Origin: Trypanosoma brucei
Lineage: Eukaryota
Assembly (NCBI GenBank): GCA_000002445.1
Contig: AE017150.2
Coordinates: 1,056,001-1,120,000 of the forward strand
DNA: 64,000 bases
Reading direction: 5' to 3'
In this document: positions 1,534 through 20,748 of the stretch, in pieces
How positions within the stretch are numbered: position 1 is the first letter of the stretch
Layout of the letters: each line of letters begins with the position of its first letter
Notes under the pieces: model-generated
Databases searched by the model: none
The model's input: only the letters and a program-made list of their open reading frames with translations
Told to the model about the DNA's origin: nothing
Translations under genes and position numbers: made by a program

Positions 1534-2457
1534 ATGACGACCGCTTCTGTGAGTCAGAGTTGTTTCCCCATAATGAGTTTCTTACACGTGCCGGGAAAGA
1601 TGTCACAGCCTTTGTGGCTTATGATGGGAACCGCTTTCCTAGTGAATGTATCTCGTAGGACTGGGACGGCAGCGTGTCCTTTTGGTAGTGCAGATGCTTC
1701 CGATGGTGTTGACAGCTCTGCGCACAAGAGGAGGCGTTTCCTCCTCACAGCCAAACACACTTTTGTGCCGTGGCAGTTCACGGACCCGCAGAGGCTGAAG
1801 GTTCCTGAGGAGTATCGTCGAACGCGCTTCGTTATTGGTCGTCTTTATATCCCGGACAGTGAAGGGAAGGCTGTGGCCTCTCTGTCTGTTGACTTGAAGT
1901 TGGTGGCCATGCACCCTACTGCTGATGTTGCGGTACTAGTTGCGAAGGTTCCAACATCGGTAGCGTCGGATGCCGCGGGCACTGCTTCGAGGTCGGCCGT
2001 AAGTGAAAGGTTTGACGCACACGCCGAGCTGGAGAGGCGGGCGAATGCGGTTGGTGGTGGATTAACGTTGGCACCTGAGGACCCCCAGAAGGGCAGCGTG
2101 TGTTCCATTGCAGGATACCGTGGTACAGGCCTGCTGGGCAAATTGGACACCTTTGACCCTGATCTGTTAGATCGGTTATCGGAGACCGAGCGTGGGCAGC
2201 TTCTTTCTTCTTTACGGTGCGTGGAGGGACAGCAAGAAGCCGCAGTGGCTCGTGTTAAGATATTCCACTCAAAGGGTATGTGCCGTGCAGAGGAGGGAAG
2301 TTGTTTTCACGGCATGTCAGGGGCTCCAGTGTTGACAGATGAGAAAACATGTGGTGGTGTCTTGTACGGCAAACACCCGGATGATGCCAACAGCGTGGGG
2401 TACGTTCCCGTGCGAAGCTTTGATGGCTTCGTTTGGGACTCAGTGATTGGGAAGTGA
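1534..2457 (+). CDS. Hypothetical protein with trypsin-like serine peptidase motifs. The true start Met is uncertain.
   Basis: A candidate catalytic triad occurs in the canonical order: LLTAKHTF (His), HPTADVAVLVA (Asp) and CFHGMSGAPVL (a GxSGxP-like Ser). This is motif-level only. Confidence 0.35.
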   Translation: MTTASVSQSCFPIMSFLHVPGKMSQPLWLMMGTAFLVNVSRRTGTAACPFGSADASDGVDSSAHKRRRFLLTAKHTFVPWQFTDPQRLKVPEEYRRTRFVIGRLYIPDSEGKAVASLSVDLKLVAMHPTADVAVLVAKVPTSVASDAAGTASRSAVSERFDAHAELERRANAVGGGLTLAPEDPQKGSVCSIAGYRGTGLLGKLDTFDPDLLDRLSETERGQLLSSLRCVEGQQEAAVARVKIFHSKGMCRAEEGSCFHGMSGAPVLTDEKTCGGVLYGKHPDDANSVGYVPVRSFDGFVWDSVIGK

Positions 2458-2747
2458 TGGATTCATGGGGTTGTTTCACCCTTCATTTGTTCCCTCCTTT
2501 AACGCTCATCCTCGCAGAGCCGCCCGTCCGTTTGCGTGCGTACCTCGCCCTTACGGATGTACGTGAGGCGGCACCGTCGTCATATTGTTTTGTCTTCGTC
2601 TTGAGCGTGCCTCTTCCCCCGTTGTTCCCGCCTGCTTATCTTCAAATAACACCCTCAGCCATTCGTTAGAACCCCATTTTTTTCCTTTAGTCACCCTTGG
2701 GTTTTGGTTCAATTGTTCAAAAAAGGCACGGTAGGTACACTCAATAT

Positions 2748-3083
2748 ATGTCTGGTGAGGAACCCACTAAATTGCAGCGAACAGAGTCTGGTGCGAGGGT
2801 GATCAAAACCAAAGAATTTCTTCGTACCAGCGTCGCCGAGGGCCCTTTCTGTCTCCTCGACAGTGCTGTGAAGAATGGAACACGCGTGTTCATCCAGTCC
2901 CGCTACAACAAGTCCCTCGTCGCAACCGTCGTTGCCTTCGACAAACACTTTAACCTCGTGTTGCGGGATGCCGTGGAGTTAACAATGGTCAACAATGAGC
3001 AGAAAGAGCGCTCCATTCGGAACATGTTCTTGCGTGGCGCCTCTGTGGTGTTCATCGTGAGGTTGCCGCAGAGCACTGTATAG
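2748..3083 (+). CDS. Small nuclear ribonucleoprotein Sm-D2.
   Basis: The Sm fold aligns strongly to eukaryotic SmD2. [43 protein letters not shown] matches [59 protein letters not shown] matches RYISKMFLRGDSVIVV. The start is set at the internal ATG at 2748 (MSGEEPTK). The ORF-track start at 2697 lies in a pyrimidine tract. Confidence 0.75.
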   Translation: [111 protein letters not shown]

Positions 3084-3422
3084 TGGCACTGCGGCACTTG
3101 TGGGGGCGAAAATACAATACGCAGCAGCGCAGTTGCGGGAAAACGATTGTATTGAACATGGTTGTTTTTGAGTTTCTTGTTGTCGCTGCTTCGTTGTTCA
3201 TTTTTTCTTTTTCGGTGTGCTCGGCTATTCGCACCGCATTCCCCCCACAGTGTTAAGAAGCCGTGGGGGCCGTTTAGGATGCGGTGTCAAAATTTATTGT
3301 AAAAGCGGTGCGTACCTGTGTAAGAGAGAATCGTTCAACAGTTCTTCTTTTTCTTTGCGGGACGAGTTTCTCCTTCTTCACTCCGTACTCGTGGACATAA
3401 GCTAAATCCCACTTATACAGTT

Positions 3423-3477
3423 GCCTTTTCTTCTTACCGTTCTGCCACTACACATTTGTTTCTTACCGTAGGGAGGA
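3423..3477 (+). promoter_or_regulatory. Polypyrimidine tract with a downstream AG. Candidate SL trans-splicing acceptor region for the repeat-protein gene and polyadenylation guide for the upstream Sm-D2 mRNA.
   Basis: Pyrimidine-rich run cttttcttcttaccgttctgccactacacatttgtttcttacc followed by AG dinucleotides before the ATG at 3596. This is the kinetoplastid processing-signal architecture. Confidence 0.35.
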
Positions 3478-3595
3478 ATACCTTTTTGTTCTTGGCAGAC
3501 AAAAGGGACCAAACAAACAAGAGGTTAACTAGGGAACGGGTATATATATATACATATATTGATTTTTTTGCTCTACATAAATAAGAATTTATACA

Positions 3596-6500
3596 ATGGT
3601 TGCCACGGAACAATCAAGAAGAGGACAAGATCCGTGTGGAGATGTAACCGACATACGAAAACCCTCCTCAATAGAGGCAGCGGAGCCTTCAGACTATTCG
3701 TCAAGCTCAGGCAATAGAGGTGAGGGCGGACGCGAATCTCGGGGTATTTGGGCATTCAAACGTGCATCATTAGTTTCGGTACCACAAACTCCCAAAACAC
3801 ATCAAGCTAGCTGGTCAACGAGCAATAGAGAAGGAAGAGGAGGAGGAAACAGACATCGTGTGTCATGGCACCAACATCTCGATCCCCATCCTAACACAGG
3901 AGCTTCGGTAGATGATGGAGCAACTTTCTGGAAAGTTCCTCGTAAAGTTTCTGAGGATCCTGAAGATAATATGTCGACTACACACTCAATTTCCACGAGT
4001 GTATCGGATCCAGTCTCCCCATCAGCAGCAAATGTGGTAGTCAAGTCTGCGACCGCCGAAAATATTTGTGTTGGAGCTTCAACCGACGGGGAAATGAAAG
4101 CAATGCCTCACAGTATGCTGCTTGATGGGGAAGTGTGGGAGTACATATATCTTAGAAAATCGTCAGAACTGCGGGATGCCTTTGCTTCTGATATTGGCGA
4201 TGTGTTAGGTTTTCCTTTTTCGACACCCATTGAGTTTACACCCACAAGAACTGGAATATTAGCGCACTGCACATTACTGTATCCTGAGACCATGAAAACT
4301 GAAGAGCTATACGAGAGGTTATCGCGAGACAAATTTCCCGCGATGAGAAGACTATATCAAACAGCAAAACGAGAGCACATGATAACAAGTTGCTCGACGA
4401 TGTACACCACGAACATTTCTGACAGGCCCATAAGTCCATCGCCGGAAGATATGGACGGACGCCGAGGCAGCATGCAAATGATGTCTTCTGCAACTAGTAC
4501 AAACCATAAACCTGAAGAATATTGTCTGTCAAAAAGGGAAGAAAGTAGAGATGCAACAAAAGAAGATGCGACGGGAATGGACACCGAATCGCAAGAAATT
4601 CATTATAGTCGTTTCACCGAACGGTCTATGAGTCGCATATCCATGGTTCCTGCTGATATCCGTGAGGCTGGTATGTCTAAGAGCCATGTTGTGACATCGC
4701 GTGCAGCCAGTCCCAGATGTGCCAAATGTCTTGATCAGTCTATGAGTCACATATCCATGGTTCCTGCTGATGTCCGTGAGGCTGGTATGTCTAAGAGCCA
4801 TGTTGAGCCATCGCGTGCAGCCAGTCCCAGATGTGCCAAATGTCTTGATCAGTCTATGAGTCGTATATCCATGGTTCCTGCTGATATCCGTGAGGCTGGT
4901 ATGTCTAAGAGCCATGTTGTGACATCGCGTGCAGCCAGTCCCAGATGTGCCAAATGTCTTGATCAGTCTATGAGTCACATATCCATGGTTCCTGCTGATA
5001 TCCGTGAGGCTGGTATGTCTAAGAGTGAGGTTGAACCATCTTTAGCAGCCAGTCTGAAATGTGGCAAATGTCTTGATCAGTCTATGAGTCGCATATCCAC
5101 ATTGCCTGCTGATATCCGTGAGGCTGGTATGTCTAAGAGCCATGTTGTGACATCGCGTGCAGCCAGTCCCAGATGTGCCAAATGTCTTGATCAGTCTATG
5201 AGTCGCCCATCCACATTGCCTGCTGATATCCGTGAGGCTGGTATGTCTAAGAGCCATGTTGTGACATCGCGTGCAGCCAGTCCCAGATGTGCCAAATGTC
5301 TTGATCAGTCTATGAGTCGCCAATCGACATTGCCTGCTGATATCCGTGAGGCTGGTATGTCTAAGAGTGAGGTTGAGCCATCTTTAGCAGCCAGTCTGAA
5401 ATGTGGCAAATGTCTTGATCAGTCTATGAGTCGCATATCTATGATGCCTGCTGATGTCCGTGAGGCTGGTATGTCTAAGAGTGAGGTTGAGCCATCTTTA
5501 GCAGCCAGTCTGAAATGTGGCAAGTGTCTTGGTCAGTCTATGAGTCGCATATCTATGATGCCTGCTGATGTCCGTGAGGCTGGTATGTCTAAGAGCCATG
5601 TTGTGACATCGCGTGCAGCCAGTCCCAGATGTGCCAAATGTCTTGATCAGTCTATGAGTCGCATATCTATGATGCCTGCTGATGTCCGTGAGGCTGGTAT
5701 GTCTAAGAGCCATGTTGTGACATCGCGTGCAGCCAGTCCCAGATGTGCCAAATGTCTTGATCAGTCTATGAGTCGCATATCTATGATGCCTGCTGGTGTC
5801 CGTGAGGCTGGTATGTCTAAGAGCCATGTTGTGACATCGCGTGCAGCCAGTCCCAGATGTGCCAAATGTCTTGATCAGTCTATGAGTCGCATATCTATGA
5901 TGCCTGCTGATGTCCGTGAGGCTGGTATGTCTAAGAGCCATGTTGTGACATCGCGTGCAGCCAGTCCCAGATGTGCCAAATGTCTTGATCAGTCTATGAG
6001 TCGCATATCTATGATGCCTGCTGATGTCCGTGAGGCTGGTATGTCTAAGAGCCATGTTGTGACATCGCGTGCAGCCAGTCCCAGATGTGCCAAATGTCTT
6101 GATCAGTCTATGAGTCACATATCCATGGTTCCTGCTGATGTCCGTGAGGCTGGTATGTCTAAGAGCCATGTTGTGACATCGCGTGCAGCCAGTCCCAGAT
6201 GTGCCAAATGTCTTGATCAGTCTATGAGTCACATATCCATGGTTCCTGCTGATGTCCGTGAGGCTGGTATGTCTAAGAGCCATGTTGTGACATCGCGTGC
6301 AGCCAGTCCCAGATGTGCCAAATGTCTTGATCAGTCTATGAGTCGCATATCTATGATGCCTGCTGATGTCCGTGAGGCTGGTATGTCTAAGAGCCATGTT
6401 GTGACATCGCGTGCAGCCAGTCCCAGATGTGCCAAATGTCTTGATCAGTCTATGAGTCGCTCATCCACATTGCCTGCTGATGTCCGTGAGGCTGGTATGT

Positions 6501-7324
6501 CTAAGAGCCATGTAGTGACATCGCGTGCAGCCAGTCCCAGATGTGCCAAATGTCTTGATCAGTCTATGAGTCGCATATCTATGATGCCTGCTGATGTCCG
6601 TGAGGCTGGTATGTCTAAGAGCCATGTTGTGACATCGCGTGCAGCCAGTCCCAGATGTGCCAAATGTCTTGATCAGTCTATGAGTCGCATATCCACATTG
6701 CCTGCTGATATCCGTGAGGCTGGTATGTCTAAGAGCCATGTTGTGACATCGCGTGCAGCCAGTCCCAGATGTGCCAAATGTCTTGATCAGTCTATGAGTC
6801 ACATATCCATGGTTCCTGCTGATGTCCGTGAGGCTGGTATGTCTAAGAGTGAGGTTGAACCATCTTTAGCAGCCAGTCTGAGATGTGCCAAATGTCTTGA
6901 TCAGTCTATGAGTCGCATATCCACATTGCCTGCTGATATCCGTGAGGCTGGTATGTCTAAGAGCCATGTTGTGACATCGCGTGCAGCCAGTCCCAGATGT
7001 GCCAAATGTCTTGATCAGTCTATGAGTCGCATATCTATGATGCCTGCTGATGTCCGTGAGGCTGGTATGTCTAAGAGCCATGTTGTGACATCGCGTGCAG
7101 CCAGTCCCAGATGTGCCAAATGTCTTGATCAGTCTATGAGTCGCATATCCACATTGCCTGCTGATATCCGTGAGGCTGGTATGTCTAAGAGCCATGTTGT
7201 GACATCGCGTGCAGCCAGTCCCAGATGTGCCAAATGTCTTGATCAGTCTATGAGTCACATATCCATGGTTCCTGCTGATGTCCGTGAGGCTGGTATGTCT
7301 AAGAGTGAGGTTGAGCCATCGTGA
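3596..7324 (+). CDS. Giant tandem-repeat protein, part 1. A unique N-terminus is followed by a 255-aa conserved domain and then about 30 copies of a 38-aa repeat. The frame is terminated by an in-frame TGA inside a repeat.
   Basis: The 1242-aa ORF carries a 114-nt repeat (consensus SMSRISMMPADVREAGMSKSHVVTSRAASPRCAKCLDQ) from 4621 onward. The stop at 7322-7324 interrupts an otherwise perfect repeat. The same frame reopens at 7364. Confidence 0.6.
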   Translation: MVATEQSRRGQDPCGDVTDIRKPSSIEAAEPSDYSSSSGNRGEGGRESRGIWAFKRASLVSVPQTPKTHQASWSTSNREGRGGGNRHRVSWHQHLDPHPNTGASVDDGATFWKVPRKVSEDPEDNMSTTHSISTSVSDPVSPSAANVVVKSATAENICVGASTDGEMKAMPHSMLLDGEVWEYIYLRKSSELRDAFASDIGDVLGFPFSTPIEFTPTRTGILAHCTLLYPETMKTEELYERLSRDKFPAMRRLYQTAKREHMITSCSTMYTTNISDRPISPSPEDMDGRRGSMQMMSSATSTNHKPEEYCLSKREESRDATKEDATGMDTESQEIHYSRFTERSMSRISMVPADIREAGMSKSHVVTSRAASPRCAKCLDQSMSHISMVPADVREAGMSKSHVEPSRAASPRCAKCLDQSMSRISMVPADIREAGMSKSHVVTSRAASPRCAKCLDQSMSHISMVPADIREAGMSKSEVEPSLAASLKCGKCLDQSMSRISTLPADIREAGMSKSHVVTSRAASPRCAKCLDQSMSRPSTLPADIREAGMSKSHVVTSRAASPRCAKCLDQSMSRQSTLPADIREAGMSKSEVEPSLAASLKCGKCLDQSMSRISMMPADVREAGMSKSEVEPSLAASLKCGKCLGQSMSRISMMPADVREAGMSKSHVVTSRAASPRCAKCLDQSMSRISMMPADVREAGMSKSHVVTSRAASPRCAKCLDQSMSRISMMPAGVREAGMSKSHVVTSRAASPRCAKCLDQSMSRISMMPADVREAGMSKSHVVTSRAASPRCAKCLDQSMSRISMMPADVREAGMSKSHVVTSRAASPRCAKCLDQSMSHISMVPADVREAGMSKSHVVTSRAASPRCAKCLDQSMSHISMVPADVREAGMSKSHVVTSRAASPRCAKCLDQSMSRISMMPADVREAGMSKSHVVTSRAASPRCAKCLDQSMSRSSTLPADVREAGMSKSHVVTSRAASPRCAKCLDQSMSRISMMPADVREAGMSKSHVVTSRAASPRCAKCLDQSMSRISTLPADIREAGMSKSHVVTSRAASPRCAKCLDQSMSHISMVPADVREAGMSKSEVEPSLAASLRCAKCLDQSMSRISTLPADIREAGMSKSHVVTSRAASPRCAKCLDQSMSRISMMPADVREAGMSKSHVVTSRAASPRCAKCLDQSMSRISTLPADIREAGMSKSHVVTSRAASPRCAKCLDQSMSHISMVPADVREAGMSKSEVEPS
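3856..4620 (+). repeat. Copy 1 of a 765-nt (255-aa) non-repetitive domain, from (R)VSWHQHLD...DGATFWKVPRKVSEDPEDNMST to SRFTER. It precedes repeat array 1.
   Basis: Near-identical to 8141-8905, with only scattered substitutions (for example SATAEN versus YSGAEN). Confidence 0.85.
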
Positions 7325-8052
7325 GCAGCCAGTCTGAGATGTGCCAAATGTCTTGATCAGTCTATGAGTCGCATATCCACATTGCCTGCTGATATCCGTG
7401 AGGCTGGTATGTCTAAGAGCCATGTTGTGACATCGCGTGCAGCCAGTCCCAGATGTGCCAAATGTCTTGATCAGTCTATGAGTCGCATATCTATGATGCC
7501 TGCTGATGTCCGTGAGGCTGGTATGTCTAAGAGCCATGTTGTGACATCGCGTGCAGCCAGTCCCAGATGTGCCAAATGTCTTGATCAGTCTATGAGTCGC
7601 ATATCCACATTGCCTGCTGATATCCGTGAGGCTGGTATGTCTAAGAGCCATGTTGTGACATCGCGTGCAGCCAGTCCCAGATGTGCCAAATGTCTTGATC
7701 AGTCTATGAGTCACATATCCATGGTTCCTGCTGATGTCCGTGAGGCTGGTATGTCTAAGAGCCATGTTGTGACATCGCGTGCAGCCAGTCCCAGATGTGC
7801 CAAATGTCTTGATCAGTCTATGAGTCGCTCATCGACATTGCCTGCTGATGTCCGTGAGGCTGGTATGTCTAAGAGTGAGGTTGAACCATCTTTAGCAGCC
7901 AGTCTGAGATGTGCCAAATGTCTTGATCAGTCTATGAGTCGCTCATCGACATTGCCTGATGATGTCCGTGAGGCTGGTATGTCTAAGAGTGAGGTTGAAC
8001 CATCTTTAGCAGCCAGTTCCAGATGTGCCAAATGTCTTGATCAGTCTATGAG
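4621..8052 (+). repeat. Coding tandem array 1. It has about 30 units of 114 nt (38 aa). H-type units (SKSHVVTSRAASPRCAKC) predominate, with interspersed E-type units (SKSEVEPSLAASLKCGKC).
   Basis: The period was measured directly. tctatgagtcgc recurs at 4625 and 4739, 114 nt apart, and the register holds for about 3.4 kb. Confidence 0.9.
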
Positions 8053-11000
8053 TGTTGGGTCTGATTTTGTTTCTGTTTTGTTAGTTGGTGGTGTAAATGA
8101 AGTTGGCAACGACCGCTCTGGTTTCCAAAGGAAACGGTACCCCGTGTCGTGGCACAAACATTGTGATGGTCCTTCGCCGTTGCGATCTTTGTGTGATGAT
8201 GGGGCAACTTTCTGGAAAGTTCCTCGTAAAGTTTCTGAGGATCCTGAAGATAATATGTCGACTGCACACTCAATTTCCACGAGTGTATCGGATCCAGTCT
8301 CCCCATCAGCAGTAAATGTGGTGGTAAAGTACAGTGGAGCCGAAAATATTTGTGTTGGAGCTTCAACCGACGGGGAAATGAAAGCAATGCCTCACACCAT
8401 GCTGCTTGATGGGGAAGTGTGGGAGTACATATATCTTAGAAAATCGTCAGAACTGCGGGATGCCTTTGCTTCTGATATTGGCGATGTGTTAGGTTTTCCT
8501 TTTTCGACACCCATTGAGTTTACACCCACAAGAACTGGAATATTAGCGCACTGTACATTACTGTATCCTGAGACCATGAAAACTGAAGAGCTATACGAGA
8601 GGTTATCGCGAGACAAATTTCCCGCGATGAGAAGACTATATCAAACAGCAAAACGAGAGCAGATGATAACAAGTTGCTCGACGATGTACACCACGAACAT
8701 TTGTGACAGGCCCATAAGTCCACCGCCGGAAGATATGGACGGACGCCGAGGCAGCATGCAAATGATGTCTTCTGCAACTAGTACAAACCATAAACCTGAA
8801 GAATATTGTCTGTCAAAAAGGGAAGAAAGAAGAGATGCAACTAAAGAAGATGCGACGGGAATGGACACCGAATCGCAAGAAATTCATTATAGTCGTTTCA
8901 CCGAACGGTCTATGAGTCGCATATCCATGGTTCCTGCTGATGTCCGTGAGGCTGGTATGTCTAAGAGTGAGGTTGAACCATCTTTAGCAGCCAGTCTGAG
9001 ATGTGCCAAATGTCTTGATCAGTCTATGAGTCACATATCTATGATGCCTGCTGATGTCCGTGAGGCTGGTATGTCTAAGAGTGAGGTTGAGCCATCTTTA
9101 GCAGCCAGTCTGAGATGTGCCAAATGTCTTGATCAGTCTATGAGTCGCATATCTATGATGCCTGCTGATGTCCGTGAGGCTGGTATGTCTCAGAGCCAAA
9201 TTGGAACATTACCCGCAACTATTCCCGTTTATTGCCCACAATTGCTTGAGCGCTGTATGAGCTGTGCTTCTACTATACTTGCTGATGTCCGTGAGGCTGG
9301 TATGTCTCAGAGCCAGATTGGAACATTACCCGCAAGTATTCCCGTTTATTGCCCACAATTGCTTGAGCGCTGTATGAGCTGTGCTTCTACTATACTTGCT
9401 GATGTCCGTGAGGCTGGTATGTCTCAGAGCCAGATTGGAACATTACCCGCAACTATTCCCGTTTATTGCCCACAATTGCTTGAGCGCTGTATGAGCTGTG
9501 CTTCTACTATACTTGCTGATGTCCGTGAGGCTGGTATGTCTCAGAGCCAGATTGGAACATTACCCGCAACTATTCCCGTTTATTGCCCACAATTGCTTGA
9601 GCGCTGTATGAGCTGTGCTTCTACTATACTTGCTGATGTCCGTGAGGCTGGTATGTCTAAGAGTGAGGTTGAACCATCTTTAGCAGCCAGTCCCAGATGT
9701 GCCAAATGTCTTGATCAGTCTATGAGTCGCATATCTATGATGCCTGCTGATGTCCGTGAGGCTGGTATGTCTAAGAGTGAGGTTGAACCATCTTTAGCAG
9801 CCAGTCTGAGATGTGGCAAATGTCTTGATCAGTCTATGAGTCGCATATCTATGATGCCTGCTGATATCCGTGAGGCTGGTATGTCTAAGAGTGAGGTTGA
9901 ACCATCTTTAGCAGCCAGTCTGAAATATGGCAAATGTCTTGATCAGTCTATGAGTCGCATATCTATGATGCCTGCTGATGTCCGTGAGGCTGGTATGTCT
10001 AAGAGTGAGGTTGAACCATCTTTAGCAGCCAGTCTGAGATGTGGCAAATGTCTTGATCAGTCTATGAGTCGCATATCTATGATGCCTGCTGATATCCGTG
10101 AGGCTGGTATGTCTAAGAGTGAGGTTGAACCATCTTTAGCAGCCAGTCTGAGATGTGGCAAATGTCTTGATCAGTCTATGAGTCGCATATCTATGATGCC
10201 TGCTGATGTCCGTGAGGCTGGTATGTCTAAGAGTGAGGTTGAACCATCTTTAGCAGCCAGTCTGAGATGTGGCAAATGTCTTGATCAGTCTATGAGTCGC
10301 ATATCTATGATGCCTGCTGATGTCCGTGAGGCTGGTATGTCTAAGAGTGAGGTTGAACCATCTTTAGCAGCCAGTCTGAGATGTGCCAAATGTCTTGATC
10401 AGTCTATGAGTCGCATATCTATGATGCCTGCTGATATCCGTGAGGCTGGTATGTCTAAGAGTGAGGTTGAACCATCTTTAGCAGCCAGTCTGAAATATGG
10501 CAAATGTCTTGATCAGTCTATGAGTCGCATATCTATGATGCCTGCTGATGTCCGTGAGGCTGGTATGTCTAAGAGTGAGGTTGAACCATCTTTAGCAGCC
10601 AGTCTGAGATGTGCCAAATGTCTTGATCAGTCTATGAGTCGCATATCTATGATGCCTGCTGATATCCGTGAGGCTGGTATGTCTAAGAGTGAGGTTGAAC
10701 CATCTTTAGCAGCCAGTCTGAAATATGGCAAATGTCTTGATCAGTCTATGAGTCGCATATCTATGATGCCTGCTGATATCCGTGAGGCTGGTATGTCTAG
10801 GAGTGAGGTTGAACCATCTTTAGCAGCCAGTCTGAAATATGGCAAATGTCTTGATCAGTCTATGAGTCGCATATCTATGATGCCTGCTGATGTCCGTGAG
10901 GCTGGTATGTCTAAGAGTGAGGTTGAACCATCTTTAGCAGCCAGTCTGAAATATGGCAAATGTCTTGATCAGTCTATGAGTCGCATATCTATGATGCCTG

Positions 11001-13342
11001 CTGATATCCGTGAGGCTGGTATGTCTAGGAGTGAGGTTGAACCATCTTTAGCAGCCAGTCTGAAATGTGGCAAATGTCTTGATCAGTCTATGAGTCGCAT
11101 ATCTATGATGCCTGCTGATGTCCGTGAGGCTGGTATGTCTAAGAGTGAGGTTGAACCATCTTTAGCAGCCAGTCTGAAATATGGCAAATGTCTTGATCAG
11201 TCTATGAGTCGCATATCTATGATGCCTGCTGATATCCGTGAGGCTGGTATGTCTAGGAGTGAGGTTGAACCATCTTTAGCAGCCAGTCTGAAATGTGGCA
11301 AATGTCTTGATCAGTCTATGAGTCGCATATCTATGATGCCTGCTGATGTCCGTGAGGCTGGTATGTCTAAGAGTGAGGTTGAACCATCTTTAGCAGCCAG
11401 TCTGAAATATGGCAAATGTCTTGATCAGTCTATGAGTCGCATATCTATGATGCCTGCTGATGTCCGTGAGGCTGGTATGTCTAAGAGTGAGGTTGAACCA
11501 TCTTTAGCAGCCAGTCTGAAATGTGGCAAATGTCTTGATCAGTCTATGAGTCGCATATCCATGATGCCTGCTGATGTCCGTGAGGCTGGTATGTCTAAGA
11601 GTGAGGTTGAACCATCTTTAGCAGCCAGTCTGAAATATGGCAAATGTCTTGATCAGTCTATGAGTCGCATATCTATGATGCCTGCTGATGTCCGTGAGGC
11701 TGGTATGTGTAAAAGGGGTGAAGCGGAGTCACTTGTTGTTAGTTCAAATAGCCGTGAGGTTAATGGTGGTGTTAAGAATTTATCCAGTGGTAATTCTTCT
11801 GCATCGTTGGACGGTAGGAAGTTTGTTTGTTCGTCGGGCAAAAGTGGTGATTATTCCGCTTCTTTCGGTGACGGTGGTTGTTGTCAAATCGTCGGTGGTG
11901 CTGAAGCGGGTGGTGTTGTTGTCTTAGAGGAATTTCGAGACATACCGAGTGGTGCTGGTTCGAATTTACCGGTACCTGTTGATGAAGTTCCTGGCGGTGG
12001 TGTGAGAATGTCGTCCGATGTTGATAAAAGCGTTTCCGGTGGCTTGTTAGAAGTATTAAAGAATTGTTCGTCTTCCAGGGGAGGTGAAAGTTTTCCGTTA
12101 GTTGCAGTTCAAGCGCTGGCGAGTCGCCAGTCTGAAAATCGCCAACCGGTGCGATGCTCTTTCAATTCTGTTGCTGAAGGCAGGTACTACGACTCGGGTC
12201 TTTTGGATGAGCGTAACGATTGGTGCGTTCCTCCCCGTGGTGTGATGCAGGGTGCAGTTGGCAGCGCACTGTGTCTTGTAAGGGGCGTTGGCGCGGTTAA
12301 TTTTGATGGATCGCCGGACATAAGCGTCACTTCTGTGGCTTCTTCTGTTGGTGATAAAGTGCCTTCGATGATTAGAGGTGAACAACGCAGGGCGAGCACC
12401 AACAGTGCTTTGCCAGATGTCGTGCCGAAAGTTGCTGACCCACCTCTTGAAGCTCCGGTTTCTTTAATTGAGGGTGAAAAAGTGTCTGTGGCCTGGGAGT
12501 CACAATTTGGGGGTAGTGCAGATCCAAAGGAGCGTTTTCTGGATCTCTCTACAACACCTCAGCATGAAAATCCGTCTCGGTTTCTCTCAAGAATGGGTAG
12601 CCTCTGTCGTTGGGGCCTCGGGTCGCAGAAGGCAAAATGTGAGGACAGCGCGGAGACGCTGAAGCGATGGGCGCAGGATAGTACCAAATATCTTATAGGA
12701 GTTCAGGAACCGGACACCGTTGCGGAGGAGTTGCCGTCCCTATCAGATGCCCGCGGAATGCCACCAATGGTGAAAGCTAGTAGCTCGTCGGATAAAAATT
12801 TCTCGCAACTTGGTCCTTTTGACACAAGCAATGGGGACCATAAGGGAGAGGAACTGACCACTTTAAGGAGGTGGTCAAAGAGTAATCAAGGGAAGAGTAT
12901 TGCCGGCAGTGGTACGGAGGAACCACGTAGCATAGCAACAAGGAATTCAGATCCAAATCTGCCTCTGTTGCGGATTCGCAAAAGTGCCAGTGGTTCGCCA
13001 CTGCTTCCGCTGGCTACGGGTGACAAAGGCCTTGCAAAGTGGGAAGATGATGGCGTCACTTCGTTACCCCCCATTATATCTCAGAGCGCAAACACTCCGC
13101 TTGGGTGCGATGCCGCTTCAAAACGGAGAGTAGGTGACAGTTACGTTTGGGATATACGCGATGTGAGCATGTCGTCGGCTTCCCCTAACACCTCTTATCT
13201 GGACATTGAGGCTGAGGGTGAAGCGTTCGATATATTCAAACGCCTCTTGCACGATATTGATGTTGCAAGTCGAGCCATCTCTAAGCCTGTACAAGCGCTT
13301 AGAGAGCTGCGTGACGGGAGGAAGTATGAAAATTCCTCGTGA
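7364..13342 (+). CDS. Giant tandem-repeat protein, part 2, in the same frame as part 1. It holds the rest of repeat array 1, a second copy of the 255-aa domain, repeat array 2 (38-aa and 39-aa units), and a unique Ser/Gly/Val-rich 545-aa C-terminus.
   Basis: The 1992-aa ORF continues the repeat phase across the stop. Whether translation restarts at Met 7364 or the locus is a single disrupted or mis-assembled gene cannot be decided from sequence alone. Confidence 0.55.
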   Translation: MSRISTLPADIREAGMSKSHVVTSRAASPRCAKCLDQSMSRISMMPADVREAGMSKSHVVTSRAASPRCAKCLDQSMSRISTLPADIREAGMSKSHVVTSRAASPRCAKCLDQSMSHISMVPADVREAGMSKSHVVTSRAASPRCAKCLDQSMSRSSTLPADVREAGMSKSEVEPSLAASLRCAKCLDQSMSRSSTLPDDVREAGMSKSEVEPSLAASSRCAKCLDQSMSVGSDFVSVLLVGGVNEVGNDRSGFQRKRYPVSWHKHCDGPSPLRSLCDDGATFWKVPRKVSEDPEDNMSTAHSISTSVSDPVSPSAVNVVVKYSGAENICVGASTDGEMKAMPHTMLLDGEVWEYIYLRKSSELRDAFASDIGDVLGFPFSTPIEFTPTRTGILAHCTLLYPETMKTEELYERLSRDKFPAMRRLYQTAKREQMITSCSTMYTTNICDRPISPPPEDMDGRRGSMQMMSSATSTNHKPEEYCLSKREERRDATKEDATGMDTESQEIHYSRFTERSMSRISMVPADVREAGMSKSEVEPSLAASLRCAKCLDQSMSHISMMPADVREAGMSKSEVEPSLAASLRCAKCLDQSMSRISMMPADVREAGMSQSQIGTLPATIPVYCPQLLERCMSCASTILADVREAGMSQSQIGTLPASIPVYCPQLLERCMSCASTILADVREAGMSQSQIGTLPATIPVYCPQLLERCMSCASTILADVREAGMSQSQIGTLPATIPVYCPQLLERCMSCASTILADVREAGMSKSEVEPSLAASPRCAKCLDQSMSRISMMPADVREAGMSKSEVEPSLAASLRCGKCLDQSMSRISMMPADIREAGMSKSEVEPSLAASLKYGKCLDQSMSRISMMPADVREAGMSKSEVEPSLAASLRCGKCLDQSMSRISMMPADIREAGMSKSEVEPSLAASLRCGKCLDQSMSRISMMPADVREAGMSKSEVEPSLAASLRCGKCLDQSMSRISMMPADVREAGMSKSEVEPSLAASLRCAKCLDQSMSRISMMPADIREAGMSKSEVEPSLAASLKYGKCLDQSMSRISMMPADVREAGMSKSEVEPSLAASLRCAKCLDQSMSRISMMPADIREAGMSKSEVEPSLAASLKYGKCLDQSMSRISMMPADIREAGMSRSEVEPSLAASLKYGKCLDQSMSRISMMPADVREAGMSKSEVEPSLAASLKYGKCLDQSMSRISMMPADIREAGMSRSEVEPSLAASLKCGKCLDQSMSRISMMPADVREAGMSKSEVEPSLAASLKYGKCLDQSMSRISMMPADIREAGMSRSEVEPSLAASLKCGKCLDQSMSRISMMPADVREAGMSKSEVEPSLAASLKYGKCLDQSMSRISMMPADVREAGMSKSEVEPSLAASLKCGKCLDQSMSRISMMPADVREAGMSKSEVEPSLAASLKYGKCLDQSMSRISMMPADVREAGMCKRGEAESLVVSSNSREVNGGVKNLSSGNSSASLDGRKFVCSSGKSGDYSASFGDGGCCQIVGGAEAGGVVVLEEFRDIPSGAGSNLPVPVDEVPGGGVRMSSDVDKSVSGGLLEVLKNCSSSRGGESFPLVAVQALASRQSENRQPVRCSFNSVAEGRYYDSGLLDERNDWCVPPRGVMQGAVGSALCLVRGVGAVNFDGSPDISVTSVASSVGDKVPSMIRGEQRRASTNSALPDVVPKVADPPLEAPVSLIEGEKVSVAWESQFGGSADPKERFLDLSTTPQHENPSRFLSRMGSLCRWGLGSQKAKCEDSAETLKRWAQDSTKYLIGVQEPDTVAEELPSLSDARGMPPMVKASSSSDKNFSQLGPFDTSNGDHKGEELTTLRRWSKSNQGKSIAGSGTEEPRSIATRNSDPNLPLLRIRKSASGSPLLPLATGDKGLAKWEDDGVTSLPPIISQSANTPLGCDAASKRRVGDSYVWDIRDVSMSSASPNTSYLDIEAEGEAFDIFKRLLHDIDVASRAISKPVQALRELRDGRKYENSS
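8141..8905 (+). repeat. Copy 2 of the 255-aa domain, embedded in-frame between repeat arrays 1 and 2.
   Basis: Aligns to 3856-4620. It is entered from array 1 through a short unique linker (SVGSDFVSVLLVGGVNEVGNDRSGFQRKRYP) with no intergenic sequence. Confidence 0.85.
8906..11705 (+). repeat. Coding tandem array 2. It has about 20 units of 114 nt (mostly E-type, with LKYGKC or LRCGKC variants) plus four units of 117 nt.
   Basis: The same repeat family as array 1. It is bounded by the second copy of the 255-aa domain upstream and the unique C-terminal domain downstream. Confidence 0.9.
9182..9650 (+). repeat. Sub-array of four near-identical 117-nt (39-aa) variant repeats, SQSQIGTLPATIPVYCPQLLERCMSCASTILADVREAGM.
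   Basis: ggtatgtctcag recurs at 9182 and 9299, 117 nt apart. The four copies are almost identical, which suggests recent amplification. Confidence 0.85.
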
Positions 13343-15703
13343 TGATTGTGTTGTTATTGTTGTGTTAAAGTTGTCTCTTTTTGTTCTTCTCTTTTTGTCT
13401 GTTTTACTAAACTGATTTCTGTTGTGTCGGTTGTTTTTGCCGACCAGGTTAGGTGACATATAGAAGTGCAAATATTCATCTGGTTGTGTGTCTTTTTCCT
13501 TGTTTTTCTCCTATATTCTGATACAAACAAGCATATGTACCCTCATTTCTCTTGTCTCCCCCTCGTTGTTTTACGTTTATTTGGTGTATATTTCTGTTTG
13601 TATATGCATGTACTCGGGGTGAGACATTGATGCTTCTTTAATTTGCGCTGGCTGTAGTTTCCTACTTTGTTTCCACTTTGCTGTGAGGTTTTTGTTTTGT
13701 TTTTTGTTTTATGTTTTTTCTGAATTATCTTGTCAGGTGTTTATTCACTCTGCCTCATTCCATTACGTTTCTGCGTTTTCCCTAGCCCCTGTTTTGCGGT
13801 TCCATTCCCCTTGTTCTTGTTCTTGTGATTTTGCTCTCGGTTTCTTTATTGAGTTGCAGCGTGTATTTGGATACATATGTATGTTCTCATATGTTTACGC
13901 CATAAGACCCCGCATGCACATATTTTTTTCTGTGAAAGTACACAAGTTAATGCATGCGTACCCGCGGAGGTGATGCATTATTATACCCACCTCAACTTTG
14001 TTTTACTTTTTTACTTTTTTTCTTTTGTCTTTTTGTTACGGTGTTCCCATAATTATGATCATATTTCCCATATTTCCTTTTGTTTTTTTTCAAATTCTTC
14101 CCACCACGATTTTACTGTTTTAGGCGACTTTTTTGTGTTTCGGTGGTTAAATGCCGTTTCATTTTCGCTTGACAGCTCTCTTCTTTTTCTTTTTTTTTTT
14201 AGTGAAAAAAAAATAATTCTTTAATTTGTTTAAAAAACAACACAACACAACACAGAATCACCAAATGAGATAAAACTATTAGATAATACGGGTGGCAGCG
14301 GCAAGTTGTGTCCGTGTGTGTCTGTTTGTGGTTGCGAAGGACTCACCGCAATTTTTTTTTTATTTTGATGAGATCAAAAGAAAAAAAAAGAAAAGAAAGG
14401 TACCATATATTTTTATTTCAAGAGATTTAACTTTTCCCAAACCAAGCTGGTTGCTTGTTGCTTTTCTTTTCTTTTCTTTTTTTTACCCCTTTGTTTTTGT
14501 TCCCTCTGACTCTCTCTCTCTCTTTCTCTCTCTCTGTTTATTTGCTTTTTATTTCGTTTGTTTCAACTGATTGGGTTAACAAAAAATGGGGTAGATAAAA
14601 GTATAAAAAGATTGAGCGGAATGATTTCATGTGAGTGAGTGTTATGAATGAACATATCGAGGTGAGGATGAACAACAGCAACAAAAAGAGAAAAAAAAAT
14701 GTACAAGAGAGAGAAGAAAGCAAACAAATATAAAAAAAAAGGGAATTTATGTACCATCCCATACGTAGAGGAGGAGGAGGAGGTTGTGTTAAATTGAAGT
14801 GAGATAGTATGAGTTTAAAGAAACAAAATCATAATCTTGATGATGGTAACAAAAATTGTACATGACCGTTGCGACGAAAGTACAGGTAAAAATGAAGTGA
14901 AGCGAGAGGGGTGGAAAGGAAGGGAAAAGAATCAAACAGCTCGTTCCTACACACATGTTAAATGTTTATATAAATTAATGTGTGTACATATGTGTATAAG
15001 TAGGATACGGATGTAGTTACGCCATAAATTCTGACGCGAGGGAAGGCGCAGAGGAGTGGCGTAATAGGAAAGTAAATTTAATCGGGGTAACAACTGCAGC
15101 CCCCCCCCCCCAAAAAAAAAGAAATATAATGATGCATACACAGGTGTCTGCATTTGTATGCAACTGAGGATGTGTATAACTTTTTTTCTTTTTTTTCTTT
15201 TTCTCTTGTGCGTGCTAGCTTTTTCACTTTTTATTTTGTCCTTGTCCTTCTTCTATTTTACGTTTTCTCTCGCAATTAATCTGCGCCACGACAGCAGAGT
15301 CTCCTTTTTTTTTGTTTTCGTCCACTCACTGTAGGAAACCATTTTGTCTCCCGACCCTCTCTACTCCTTTCCCGTGATACGAAATGGCTAAACATGCGCG
15401 TACATGAGAGCGCGGTAAATGAAGTGTAAAAAAAAAAAGGGAATCGGGAGAGGTACACGCCATGAGTTGTGTGTTAGCAATATGAGGAGCGTACGACTTA
15501 TTTCAGCGAGTGATTGTAGTTTGTGGAAGTGAAACTGACATTACTGTGGAGTGCAGTTACTCGGGATAATCCGTCACTCACCCACTCACTAAATTTATTA
15601 TTATTATTATTGTTATGATTAACGTGTTGTTTGGTACTTTTGTTTTTGTTCCTATTTCAGTCATCTGCATCTATTTCCCCTCTTTTTAAAAAAAAAATTT
15701 ATC

Positions 15704-17164
15704 TTGATTCCCTCTTTTGTTAGTGCCGTGTCCAGTACATCGTTGCAGAAGAACGTAAAAAGGGAGCGGCGCGACGGTGCTTTTGCATCAGTCGGTACGT
15801 TTTACATGTGGCGGATCACGCGGCTCTGCTGCAAACAACTCATACGGGATGAATCTTTAGTTTCCCTTCCACCCGCTGTGCACCGATTGGAAGTTTACCG
15901 AAACGCCGTAAGTGTTGACTGCGAGGAGCGCATCTGCGCGGAGTTGGGCCTTCTGCTGCAACGTGAGGGACACACCGCCTTTGCTGAGGGCTCCACTCCG
16001 CAGCAGAAGATTGTGAAGCACACATATTTGGAACTGCATGGTGCTCATAAGGACTTTACGGAGGTGAAGAGTTTCCAACGGAAGGAGACGCGGAGACTCC
16101 CTGGTTTATTATGGTCCCCCACTCTTGTGTCATGGATGAATGAAGTGGTGCCACGGGTACGTGTGTTTCCAGTGGGTGTAATGCCAGACACGGCAAGGGT
16201 TGTGGAACATAATATGACAGGATATGAAATGCATATGGAGCACCCCACCGTTGGTTGTTCTTTTCTTTACTTATCGTTGCTATCTGATACGGTCCTCACG
16301 TTCGACGATGAGGCTACGGGGCGCTATGGTGAAGTGTTTCTCCCCCAACGTGCGTTAATGTGCTGCTCCGGCGAGATTCGTTGGGGCTGGCGCTTCGGCG
16401 AGCAGTCTCGTGAGGTGCACACATTTGTTAATGCTTCTGGCGTTCGACGGGTTGTGGAGCCGGATCTGCGGCTGAGTGTGCAGTTGTGGAAGTTTACACC
16501 ACAATTGCTGGATGCGCGGCTGCTGCAGGATCGTGTTGAGGAGTCAATGAAGCAAAGGGAGGCTGAGGAGTCAAATGAAGTAGTCGAAACCATTGCTGTG
16601 GACCGTAAGAAGAATGAAGAGGAGCATAAGGGCTCTGCCTCCTCCCATGCATTGTTTAGCGCCCTAGCGGAAAAAGGTGCCTCCGGGACAGGGCCTCTCG
16701 GTGGTGAGTATGTGGAGGGGAGAACGCAGGCCTGCAAGGGTGTGGAAGGAAAGAGCATGACGATGGAAGATATTGGTCGGGACTACAACACCTACAAGCA
16801 ACAGTTTCAAAACGTTCACGGTGTGCTACAAGAGATGAAGGCACTGCAGGATGCGGGTCAACCCATCAATGACATGTGGCTGAGGAAGCGTATACTTGAT
16901 GGTCAGAAGGATGACAATCATGACGCGCAGGACGGTTTCGATCCAAACGATGTGGAGGGAACGTGGGATCGTGTGGATGCAAAGGCACGGTTCTACAAGG
17001 CACGCCTGAAGGGTATGGACTACGATGGCACCGCCAACAGCAACAGCTCGATGCCGGATGTGACAGAAGACGCTCCTCTTGATATGAAGAAGACAATTCA
17101 GAAGATCGCCCCACTCGTAAAGGACGGCGATAAGATCCTTGCGAGCCTGCCGTGTGGTCAATGA
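15704..17164 (+). CDS. Hypothetical protein. The true start is possibly the Met at 15806.
   Basis: 486-aa + strand ORF. Its first ATG sits inside a pyrimidine tract. I recognise no domain. Confidence 0.45.
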   Translation: MIPSFVSAVSSTSLQKNVKRERRDGAFASVGTFYMWRITRLCCKQLIRDESLVSLPPAVHRLEVYRNAVSVDCEERICAELGLLLQREGHTAFAEGSTPQQKIVKHTYLELHGAHKDFTEVKSFQRKETRRLPGLLWSPTLVSWMNEVVPRVRVFPVGVMPDTARVVEHNMTGYEMHMEHPTVGCSFLYLSLLSDTVLTFDDEATGRYGEVFLPQRALMCCSGEIRWGWRFGEQSREVHTFVNASGVRRVVEPDLRLSVQLWKFTPQLLDARLLQDRVEESMKQREAEESNEVVETIAVDRKKNEEEHKGSASSHALFSALAEKGASGTGPLGGEYVEGRTQACKGVEGKSMTMEDIGRDYNTYKQQFQNVHGVLQEMKALQDAGQPINDMWLRKRILDGQKDDNHDAQDGFDPNDVEGTWDRVDAKARFYKARLKGMDYDGTANSNSSMPDVTEDAPLDMKKTIQKIAPLVKDGDKILASLPCGQ

Positions 17165-20400: not shown

Positions 20401-20748
20401 CCTTGTTGCTGTGTTTACGCACTGCCAAGTTTGCACGTGAAGTCGCTTCCGGCCAGAAGACTGGCGGGTTGCAGTATTGCGCAATGCATTGCTGCTGGTT
20501 TGTCGTTGGTAGTAGTTAGGGGCCAGCGAGCGGCGAAATCACAAATGCTAGACGCGGAAATACGGAAGCCACTGTACATTGCAAGAAGGTACAAAGCCTT
20601 GTCTGGTCTCACAATGCACGAGTCGGGGGCTGATATATTTTTATCAATGAGTGTACCTGAGGGTGCGAGTTGGTTGCTCCAACAAATGTGTGACGCTGGA
20701 TATGAAGCGGAGGTCAATATGGCTATGCTTTTTGCTGCAGACTGTTGA
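17497..20748 (+). CDS. Large hypothetical protein (1083 aa), Leu/Ala/Cys-rich and probably alpha-helical repeat.
   Basis: Long uninterrupted ORF in the shared gene orientation. Confidence 0.5.
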   Translation: MSLSTLLYKAEVRQGLVSRNAGVWLNMCWCTTQEVAEVLSISRLRGDVSESARKTADERFMQLHNGSMNIGDILTEVAVNRGVCGGAPSDSLQLAAALALEPLVTKGRWCEGNGFNDKVRVLDMLLGFLSDEAVMSSGNATHTGRVRVSLCLCLCQIITFESPTPYWNGVLSDCLASIVSDWSGSQYEMIDNDSEHIFKSFRHIVVLQLSELCASNTALWWYMVSTLSRCLVEGSSSFPVGDVRRHFSFSVVLRLMRRRPRVSDTHEGMRPADSFIFGPAFRQLIDGSLQQAVALAGSDRWSHVAVQQECRLLLDISSHLISNAEFAAQLFRCSVDLLVLAEPTAYDTIAASTLVAAVAARVDSALECMSGVLQAFPEVSLRFDAGEVTSKLLNCMAGAAAAARGDECDDDDDKEAELLGMLREDYVVPLGCAGGDTTSTAGAVLELLVEANPQQLSTIVDALCNCCSSAEGLLSLLRSAHWRAWAAALRCCCRVCEEGETSLIDRMPHVEDKLMLPLAQLLHESTESMVSVELIDLLSLCLVRTTQGALGCSFLALLDGVFHHCNSVFGLATGGTGIAARGGGSSQVALLSVSVYAVHRLLSRCGESVTSTLVAACDVQLWLERSLSVLASGGLLAVYCGAYAVKTLLSFAPRTASHYPALAAAAVDSACRHCGIPDASSLFAGLLTCLCDHKEGECALAGELLSVVAHHCQLATPHRSVLLRSTSDYVLRASKLCLEEKSRLQDGVESNTCQQCKVLQLVRCFPLITHFTVSDAPHDEATTRLLSSCFAASSSVLFVLDAIDDDVLADMGSSLIALFHASTGANRSCTTLSTVCTAMSVVGLVNPSFFNDGAVLSAVLTLFKKEVEVAPRKGMDYIGCCLPVALSCVRHPQQLSVIAGGDLTPAAARGVPVASAWLVMFGVWSSISPFADHFTSLYFLAAWHRLLLYAVSVRASDANRLDMLATSAPCCCVYALPSLHVKSLPARRLAGCSIAQCIAAGLSLVVVRGQRAAKSQMLDAEIRKPLYIARRYKALSGLTMHESGADIFLSMSVPEGASWLLQQMCDAGYEAEVNMAMLFAADC

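What the first reader, a model, noticed from the sequence alone, without database searches (positions are those of the whole stretch)
7310..7370. A single in-frame TGA inside an otherwise perfect repeat splits the giant gene into two ORFs
At 7319-7324 the repeat codons read tcg tga. The E-type consensus at that position is tct tta (Ser-Leu). The H-type consensus is tcg cgt (Ser-Arg). The local sequence catcgtgagcagccagtctgagatgtgcc looks like a junction between an H-type left half and an E-type right half, with two T-to-G differences creating the stop.

The frame stays open across the stop. Both flanks are repeat sequence for kilobases.

There are three explanations. It could be a genuine pseudogenising mutation. 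It could be a truncated first product plus an internally initiated second product, although trypanosome mRNAs are monocistronic after trans-splicing, so the downstream part would need its own splice site. It could be a consensus or assembly error in a collapsed repeat.
Basis: seen in the sequence. Interest (0 to 1): 0.55.

Follow-up and report, generated by a model that had tools for sequence, protein, structure and literature searches.

The report
Known false split of flagellar-tip gene
The lone TGA is really in the sequence, but it sits in the Trypanosoma brucei TREU927 reference where one large, repeat-rich flagellum-tip protein gene was annotated as two (Tb927.2.5860 and Tb927.2.5870), a split already reported in 2021 as wrong, so the finding is ordinary.

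Summary
A 3249-codon frame (3596-13342, +) has one internal stop, TGA at 7322-7324, inside a 114-bp repeat unit.

The window is T. brucei brucei TREU927 chromosome 2. The two ORFs are Tb927.2.5860 (1242 aa, 3596-7324) and, presumably, Tb927.2.5870.

Cosentino et al. 2021 (PMC8445201) reported that Lister 427 has one 2788-aa ORF here. They also noted that TrypTag tagging, done in TREU927 itself, gives flagellar-tip signal only for the N-terminus of 5860 and the C-terminus of 5870. They concluded the gene was "wrongly split".

My checks agree:
- T. b. gambiense DAL972 and T. b. equiperdum IVM-t1 have the same architecture and no TGA unit.
- The stop unit is E-type on both sides, not an H/E junction.
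- It differs from a twin unit 456 bp upstream at three positions within 9 bp, in 791 bp otherwise identical. All three changes are to G and all match the H-type base.
- There is no polypyrimidine tract after the stop and no SECIS match.

Most likely this is a consensus error in a Sanger-era repeat assembly (about 0.6). A real stop on one haplotype is the main rival (about 0.3). Only TREU927 reads can separate them.

Already known; low interest.

The parts
3596..13342 (+). The whole reading frame: 3249 codons, one gene for a large repetitive flagellum-tip protein, orthologue of Lister 427 Tb427_020030800
   Evidence: Translation. Stop counts per frame. Same architecture, open in frame, in DAL972 and IVM-t1. 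Literature.
3596..7324 (+). ORF annotated as Tb927.2.5860 (1242 aa), ending at the TGA
   Evidence: the ORF listing gives 1242 aa. Supplementary Table S2 of PMC8445201 gives Tb927.2.5860 = 1242 aa, flanked by Tb927.2.5830 (307 aa).5850 (111 aa) and .5890 (452 aa), as in the window.
7322..7324 (+). The in-frame TGA. E-type units have TTA here and H-type units have CGT
7247..7360 (+). The stop-bearing 114-bp unit: an E-type unit (SMSHISMVPADVREAGMSKSEVEPS*AASLRCAKCLDQ) with H-type G at 7315, 7321 and 7323
6791..6904 (+). Twin unit 456 bp upstream. It is identical except GAA/GAG, TCT/TCG and TTA/TGA, and encodes Leu where the stop unit has TGA
6971..7761 (+). 791-bp copy of 6515-7305 (period 456 bp, four units), differing only at 7315, 7321 and 7323
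   Evidence: Clustering probability 2.6e-4.
7364..13342 (+). Second ORF (1992 aa) from the first ATG after the stop. Presumed to be Tb927.2.5870; its annotated start was not verified
   Evidence: Literature names 5870 as the contiguous downstream fragment.
4625..8044 (+). Repeat array 1: 30 units of 114 bp (38 aa), mostly H-type with 8 E-type units
4109..4363 (+). FAZ1_cons domain (PF23398), first copy
   Evidence: Pfam 39.2 bits against a cutoff of 27.5, residues 172-256.
8045..8908 (+). In-frame duplicate of the N-terminal domain, with no start codon context or intergenic signals. Its FAZ1_cons copy lies at about 8393-8647
   Evidence: Present in frame in DAL972 and IVM-t1.
8909..11656 (+). 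Repeat array 2: E-type 114-bp units, interrupted by 4.3 variant units of 117 bp at 9163-9663
11657..13342 (+). Non-repeat C-terminal region (561 aa). Its extreme C-terminus is conserved in repeat proteins from the representative library that look like trypanosome orthologues (source organism not given)

Best explanation
The window is T. brucei brucei TREU927 chromosome 2. The frame 3596-13342 is one gene for a roughly 3250-residue flagellum-tip protein. Its layout is: an N-terminal FAZ1_cons-containing domain, 30 repeats of 38 aa, a duplicate of that domain, a second repeat array, and a conserved C-terminal region.

The TGA at 7322-7324 is most likely not part of the functional gene. It is probably a wrong consensus call in the Sanger-era assembly of a near-identical tandem array, made where E-type (TCT TTA) and H-type (TCG CGT) units were confused. 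That call led annotators to split the gene into Tb927.2.5860 and Tb927.2.5870.

Shown: the single-gene architecture in three other assemblies or strains, and the complementary tagging result in TREU927.
Inferred: that the TGA itself is an error rather than a variant on one haplotype.
For: 1. Identity. Neighbouring proteins match TREU927 entries XP_951728, XP_951732, XP_951733 and XP_951735 exactly. ORF1 is 1242 aa, the length of Tb927.2.5860, in the same gene order.

2. Lister 427 v10 has one 2788-aa ORF, Tb427_020030800, aligning to both 5860 and 5870. [quoted passage not shown]

3. TrypTag was done in TREU927 SmOxP9. N-tagged 5860 and C-tagged 5870 localise to the flagellar tip. C-tagged 5860 and N-tagged 5870, which would break a single gene, give cytoplasmic signal. 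Tip targeting therefore needs the 5860 N-terminus and the 5870 C-terminus on one polypeptide in this strain.

4. DAL972 and IVM-t1 have the same domain-array-domain-array-C-terminus layout in one frame and no TCGTGA unit. Units counted: DAL972 47 TCGCGT, 14 TCTTTA, 2 TCTCGT; IVM-t1 25, 11 and 1.

5. The stop is part of a cluster of three changes in 9 bp within 791 bp that otherwise matches a copy 456 bp upstream (P = 2.6e-4). Each changed base equals the H-type base, and they interleave with retained E-type bases. This is the pattern expected from column-wise consensus over mixed E and H reads, not from independent mutation.

6. After the stop, 2005 codons stay open, including 849 non-repeat codons.

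7. This locus defeats assemblers in general. DAL972 has a 100-N gap. IVM-t1 has many 1-nt deletions. T. equiperdum OVI collapsed both arrays.
Against: No TREU927 reads could be examined, so the base calls at 7321 and 7323 are untested.

A mixed read pile-up should also have disturbed the other diagnostic sites (7306-7309, 7335-7336), and these are cleanly E-type.

As far as I know (own knowledge, not checked here), TREU927 chromosome 2 was sequenced from BAC clones. Each clone represents one haplotype, so a real heterozygous stop could have been captured.

Allele-specific premature stops are documented in T. brucei: 123 genes in Lister 427 have CDS lengths that differ between alleles, and there is no nonsense-mediated decay.

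The TrypTag pattern needs only one intact allele. The DAL972 gap lies in array 1, so a stop unit hidden in it cannot be excluded.
Confidence: 0.6

Rival explanations
1. The TGA is real but heterozygous. One TREU927 haplotype, the one in the sequenced clone, carries a premature stop produced by a short-patch conversion between an E-type and an H-type unit. The other haplotype encodes the full-length protein. The stop allele would be transcribed, since there is no NMD, and would yield a truncated N-domain plus 27-repeat product.
For: All three clustered changes are templated by H-type sequence, as a micro-conversion would be. Another short patch exists in the same array: unit 4739 is H-type with E-type bases at offsets 67 and 69, giving HVEPSR. 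Allele-specific PTCs without mRNA decay are documented in T. brucei. TrypTag results need only one intact allele.
Against: An interleaved E,H,E,H,E,H,E pattern over seven diagnostic sites within 11 bp (offsets 67-69 and 74-77) is unusual for a conversion tract. The stop is not seen in DAL972, IVM-t1 or Lister 427. Nothing downstream has decayed, so it would have to be recent.
Confidence: 0.3
2. The TGA is real and homozygous, and the locus makes two proteins. One is Tb927.2.5860, ending at the TGA. The other is Tb927.2.5870, expressed from its own trans-splice site or by reinitiation at ATG 7364.
For: An ATG lies 40 nt after the stop, in frame. C-terminally tagged 5870 is expressed. Both entries appear in the AC1 tip proximity proteome, though peptides cannot tell one protein from two.
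Against: No pyrimidine run of 6 nt or more lies in 7250-7420, while real intergenic regions here carry 24-28-nt runs. The sequence after the stop is ordinary repeat, identical to other units. Ribosome occupancy drops after PTCs in T. brucei with no reinitiation. C-tagged 5860 and N-tagged 5870 both mislocalise, whereas the outer tags both go to the tip. Three other T. brucei-group assemblies (two subspecies and one other strain) have one ORF.
Confidence: 0.05
3. The TGA is decoded, either as selenocysteine or by programmed readthrough, so a full-length protein is made from the sequence as written.
For: The frame is open on both sides. By my own knowledge, not tested here, T. brucei has selenocysteine machinery.
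Against: No SECIS or any other credible Rfam match in 2400-16000 at E <= 1. The aligned residue in 49 sister units is Leu or Arg, never Cys. No other strain has TGA here.
Confidence: 0.02

Closest known systems
Tb927.2.5860 / Tb927.2.5870 = Tb427_020030800 (Cosentino, Brink & Siegel 2021, NAR Genom Bioinform, PMC8445201, Fig. 2F)
   Same: The same locus. ORF1 is 1242 aa, as listed for Tb927.2.5860. The flanking genes match Tb927.2.5830.5850 and .5890. The paper already concludes that the two TREU927 genes are one gene wrongly split, supported by TrypTag localisation.
   Different: The paper does not describe the nucleotide cause. New here: the split is a single TGA in an E-type unit. It belongs to a three-change, 9-bp, H-templated cluster inside a 791-bp duplicate. 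DAL972 and IVM-t1 lack it.
Flagellum-tip proteins of T. brucei (AC1 proximity proteome; the mSc::Tb427.02.5860 tip marker)
   Same: Both annotated halves are the top-enriched non-cyclase entries in the AC1 tip proteome. The N-terminally tagged 427 orthologue is used as a distal-tip marker.
   Different: No function beyond localisation has been reported in the papers I found. How the repeats or the FAZ1_cons domain work is unknown.
FAZ1 (flagellum attachment zone protein 1) and the Pfam family FAZ1_cons, PF23398
   Same: Both copies of the N-terminal domain score above the Pfam gathering threshold: 39.2 and 40.6 bits against 27.5. So does the T. congolense homologue TCIL3000_2_1530. Like FAZ1, this is a large repetitive cytoskeleton-associated protein.
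   Different: It localises to the flagellar tip rather than the FAZ filament. Its repeat unit is 38 aa. The domain occurs twice.
Allele-specific premature termination codons in T. brucei (same paper, Fig. 6)
   Same: A premature stop in an otherwise intact, conserved ORF. Such alleles are tolerated without mRNA decay.
   Different: Those cases were shown by phased reads in Lister 427. Here no read evidence exists, and the strain's own tagging data show at least one intact allele.

Membership tests
Tb927.2.5860/5870 locus of T. brucei TREU927 (single gene, orthologue of Tb427_020030800) | Located on TREU927 chromosome 2 between Tb927.2.5850 (LSM, 111 aa) and Tb927.2.5890 (452 aa) | tested here: met
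   Exact protein matches to the TREU927 entries for the 307-, 452-, 1083- and 523-aa neighbours. LSM ORF at 2748-3083. Gene order as in Table S2.
Tb927.2.5860/5870 locus of T. brucei TREU927 (single gene, orthologue of Tb427_020030800) | First fragment is 1242 aa | tested here: met
   ORF 3596-7324 is 1242 aa. Table S2 lists the subject length of Tb927.2.5860 as 1242.
Tb927.2.5860/5870 locus of T. brucei TREU927 (single gene, orthologue of Tb427_020030800) | One uninterrupted ORF in other T. brucei strains or subspecies | tested here: met
   DAL972 is open apart from a 100-N gap. IVM-t1 has the same layout, with only 1-nt long-read deletions. Lister 427 has 2788 aa (literature).
Pfam FAZ1_cons (PF23398) | Score above the curated gathering threshold (27.5 bits) | tested here: met
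   39.2 bits (residues 172-256) and 40.6 bits (second copy).
Pseudogene (long-standing inactivation) | Further disabling mutations or relaxed constraint downstream of the first stop | tested here: not met
   No other stop or frameshift in the 2005 downstream codons. dN/dS against DAL972 and IVM-t1 rests on only 9-17 differences per region (ratios 0.36-1.01) and is inconclusive.
Independently expressed downstream gene in a trypanosome polycistron | Polypyrimidine tract and AG acceptor upstream of the start codon | tested here: not met
   No pyrimidine run of 6 nt or more in 7250-7420. Only two runs of 10 nt or more in the whole ORF (4210, 8494), against 24-28-nt runs in the downstream intergenic region. 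SL-RNA-seq data could not be examined.
Selenoprotein (UGA = Sec) | SECIS element in the mRNA, and Cys or Sec at the aligned position in homologues | tested here: not met
   No SECIS match in 2400-16000 at E <= 1. Sister units have Leu or Arg.
Assembly or consensus error | Raw reads from the same strain do not support the called bases | not testable with these tools
   No TREU927 reads are available. The protein collections lack these repeat proteins altogether.

The most novel reading that the evidence does not exclude
The TGA is a genuine variant on one TREU927 haplotype, created by a G-favouring short-patch repair of an E/H heteroduplex during intra-array recombination. The genome strain would then naturally express both a full-length and a truncated (N-domain plus 27 repeats) flagellum-tip protein.
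Probability: 0.3. Interest if true: 0.25.

Novelty: already known. Interest (0 to 1): 0.1.

Why it matters
The practical consequence is small. Anyone using the TREU927 annotation should treat Tb927.2.5860 and Tb927.2.5870 as one gene, a flagellum-tip protein of about 3250 aa in this assembly. Otherwise tagging, knockout or RNAi designs will break it, and proteomic or transcriptomic counts will be split between two identifiers. This has been in the literature since 2021.

What this analysis adds is the exact cause: one T>G at 7323, within a three-change, H-templated cluster. It also gives a simple k-mer test to settle error against heterozygous allele. The case shows once more how near-identical tandem arrays produce spurious stops in Sanger-era references.

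Tried and rejected
1. Exact look-ups of ORF1 and ORF2 in the contig and protein collections found nothing. The DAL972 fragments were also absent. These collections seem to lack the T. brucei repeat proteins, so other strains could not be surveyed that way.

2. Homology search with the N-terminal 457 aa found only T. congolense TCIL3000_2_1530.

3. Homology search with three repeat units across the stop found nothing, so no read-derived (Logan) fragments ending at the TGA could be found.

4. The exhaustive representative search with the last 1199 aa gave no T. brucei self-hit. It gave only weak repeat matches, plus likely orthologue fragments from other trypanosomes (P0015, P0018) that share the repeat style and C-terminus.

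5. dN/dS on the unique regions downstream of the stop had too few differences to be informative.

6. The Rfam scan for SECIS or any RNA element found two sub-threshold chance hits only.

7. T. equiperdum OVI contigs break or collapse at the arrays and say nothing about the stop.

8. I considered that the frame is really two tandem genes fused, because the N-domain is duplicated. I rejected this: the duplicate is in frame with array 1 in all three assemblies, has no intergenic signals, and Lister 427 has one ORF.

9. A link between these 38-aa repeats and the 38-aa MARP repeats is a recollection of mine only, and it was not tested.

10. A literature search for a long-read TREU927 assembly found none that addresses this locus.

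Full report
**1. What is in the sequence**

Bases 7319-7324 read TCG TGA. Translating from the ATG at 3596 gives 3249 codons ending at 13342, with a single internal stop at 7322-7324. That frame has 2 stops in total, against 205 and 366 in the other two forward frames. The ORF listing reports the two pieces as 3596-7324 (1242 aa) and 7364-13342 (1992 aa).

The protein layout is as follows:

| Region | Coordinates |
|---|---|
| N-terminal non-repeat domain | 3596-4624 |
| Array 1: 30 units of 114 bp (38 aa) | 4625-8044 |
| In-frame duplicate of most of the N-terminal domain | 8045-8908 |
| Array 2, with 4.3 variant 117-bp units at 9163-9663 | 8909-11656 |
| Non-repeat C-terminal region (561 aa) | 11657-13342 |

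Both copies of the N-terminal domain match Pfam FAZ1_cons (PF23398) above its gathering score.

**2. The stop unit in detail**

Among 49 full units, the two codons at this position are TCT TTA in 25, TCG CGT in 23, and TCG TGA once.

The unit 7247-7360 is not an H-left/E-right hybrid. At the sites that separate the two unit types it is E-type at 7306, 7307, 7309, 7314, 7316, 7322, 7324, 7335 and 7336. It carries the H-type base only at 7315, 7321 and 7323. Only 7323 (TTA>TGA) makes the stop; 7321 is synonymous.

The unit has a twin 456 bp upstream (6791-6904). More broadly, 6971-7761 equals 6515-7305 over 791 bp except at exactly those three positions: A>G, T>G, T>G. Three random differences would lie within 9 bp with probability 2.6e-4. 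All three also equal the base of the other unit type.

The stop therefore comes from a single templated event that mixed E and H sequence base by base. That event could be biological (short-patch repair of a heteroduplex) or artefactual (a column-wise consensus over mis-piled reads, or mixed traces). The sequence alone cannot say which.

**3. Where the window comes from**

The neighbouring proteins are identical to T. brucei brucei TREU927 entries XP_951728, XP_951732, XP_951733 and XP_951735, on a 1.19-Mb record.

The gene order matches Tb927.2.5830.5850.5860/.5870 and .5890 in Supplementary Table S2 of Cosentino et al. 2021: a 307-aa protein, a 111-aa LSM protein, the giant frame, then a 452-aa protein. 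That table lists Tb927.2.5860 as 1242 aa, exactly ORF1.

**4. What is already known**

Cosentino, Brink & Siegel (NAR Genom Bioinform 2021, PMC8445201) found that the long-read Lister 427 v10 assembly has one gene here: Tb427_020030800, 2788 aa, Chr2_core:777157-785524. [quoted passage not shown]

They cite TrypTag data. N-terminal tagging of 5860 and C-terminal tagging of 5870 give a specific flagellar-tip signal. C-terminal tagging of 5860 and N-terminal tagging of 5870 give cytoplasmic mislocalisation. TrypTag was carried out in TREU927 (line SmOxP9), the strain of this window. At least one allele in this very strain must therefore encode the N-terminus of 5860 and the C-terminus of 5870 on one polypeptide.

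Both halves top the AC1 flagellar-tip proximity proteome (PMC8141408). The N-terminally tagged 427 orthologue is used as a flagellum-tip marker (PMC9826329).

**5. Other strains, checked here**

I fetched the locus from two further assemblies: T. b. gambiense DAL972 (FN554965.1) and T. b. equiperdum IVM-t1 (CM010673.1).

- **Both assemblies:** the same domain-array-domain-array-C-terminus layout in one frame. Neither has a TCGTGA unit.
- **DAL972:** its two annotated 'genes' (1181 and 2415 aa) are separated by a 100-N assembly gap, not by a stop.
- **IVM-t1:** the frame is broken only by 1-nt deletions, giving units of 113 or 112 nt, typical of uncorrected long reads.
- **T. equiperdum OVI (short reads):** both arrays collapsed, and the two domain copies are joined through 10 N.

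Each of the four assemblies whose sequence I could examine (TREU927, DAL972, IVM-t1, OVI) has a defect at this locus. That raises the prior for an artefact in the 2003-era Sanger assembly.

**6. Tests of the alternatives**

*Separate downstream gene.* There is no pyrimidine run of 6 nt or more in 7250-7420, and only two runs of 10 nt or more in the whole frame. The downstream intergenic region has runs of 24-28 nt. In T. brucei, ribosome occupancy falls directly after premature stops with no reinitiation.

*Selenocysteine or readthrough.* No SECIS or other credible Rfam match was found, and sister units have Leu or Arg at this position.

*Old pseudogene.* There is no further stop or frameshift in the 2005 downstream codons. 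The C-terminal end is conserved in likely orthologues from other trypanosomes. dN/dS between strains is uninformative because there are too few differences.

*Real heterozygous stop.* This is not excluded. Allele-specific premature stops exist in T. brucei and are not removed by mRNA decay. The tagging data need only one intact allele. To my knowledge, a BAC-based assembly samples one haplotype.

**7. Verdict**

The description of the unit as an H/E junction is not.

The biology is ordinary and already published: one gene for a large repetitive flagellum-tip protein, annotated as two in the TREU927 reference because of one TGA.

| Reading | Probability |
|---|---|
| The TGA is a consensus error | about 0.6 |
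| A real variant on one haplotype | about 0.3 |
| A homozygous stop giving two products | about 0.05 |
| A decoded TGA | about 0.02 |

A k-mer count or long reads from TREU927 would settle it.

Noticed in passing
window 3860-4624 vs 8130-8908: The N-terminal domain, including the FAZ1_cons match, is duplicated in frame between the two repeat arrays. The last 700 nt of the two copies differ at only 20 positions. The duplication is shared by DAL972 and IVM-t1, so it predates the split of these subspecies.
   Followed up: partly
window 9163-9663: Four 117-bp (39-aa) variant units (SQSQIGTLPATIPVYCPQLLERCMSCASTILADVREAGM) are embedded in array 2. They are also present in DAL972, where the spacing suggests about two copies, and in IVM-t1.
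   Followed up: no
window 4739-4852: A second short-patch chimera. This H-type unit carries E-type bases at offsets 67 and 69, giving HVEPSR instead of HVVTSR. No such unit is seen in DAL972 or IVM-t1. It could be another micro-conversion or another consensus mosaic.
   Followed up: partly
window 4625-8044 (array 1): TREU927 array 1 holds 8 E-type units among 30. In DAL972 only two E-type units occur there (the first unit, and an identical unit just after the gap). In IVM-t1 only the first unit looks E-type, though an indel garbles it. This is either real strain-specific homogenisation between arrays or a sign that the TREU927 array was assembled as a mosaic.
   Followed up: no
window 13067 (L005, DAL972 equivalent): DAL972 lacks one base here relative to TREU927 and IVM-t1. 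This shifts the frame and shortens the annotated C-terminus. It may be a DAL972 sequencing error or a real gambiense variant.
   Followed up: partly
window 5498-6397 (-) and 6866-7765 (-): Two antisense ORFs of exactly 299 aa lie inside array 1. They are by-products of the repeat period, not genes.
   Followed up: no
L001 12554-12563 (T. equiperdum OVI CZPT02001887.1): The short-read assembly joins the first N-domain to the duplicate domain through 10 N and drops array 1 entirely. The result is a chimeric gene model.
   Followed up: yes
window 17497-20748: The ORF downstream of Tb927.2.5890 is 1083 aa from its first ATG in this window. The Lister 427 and IVM-t1 gene models are 1057 aa, which suggests a start-codon annotation difference.
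   Followed up: no
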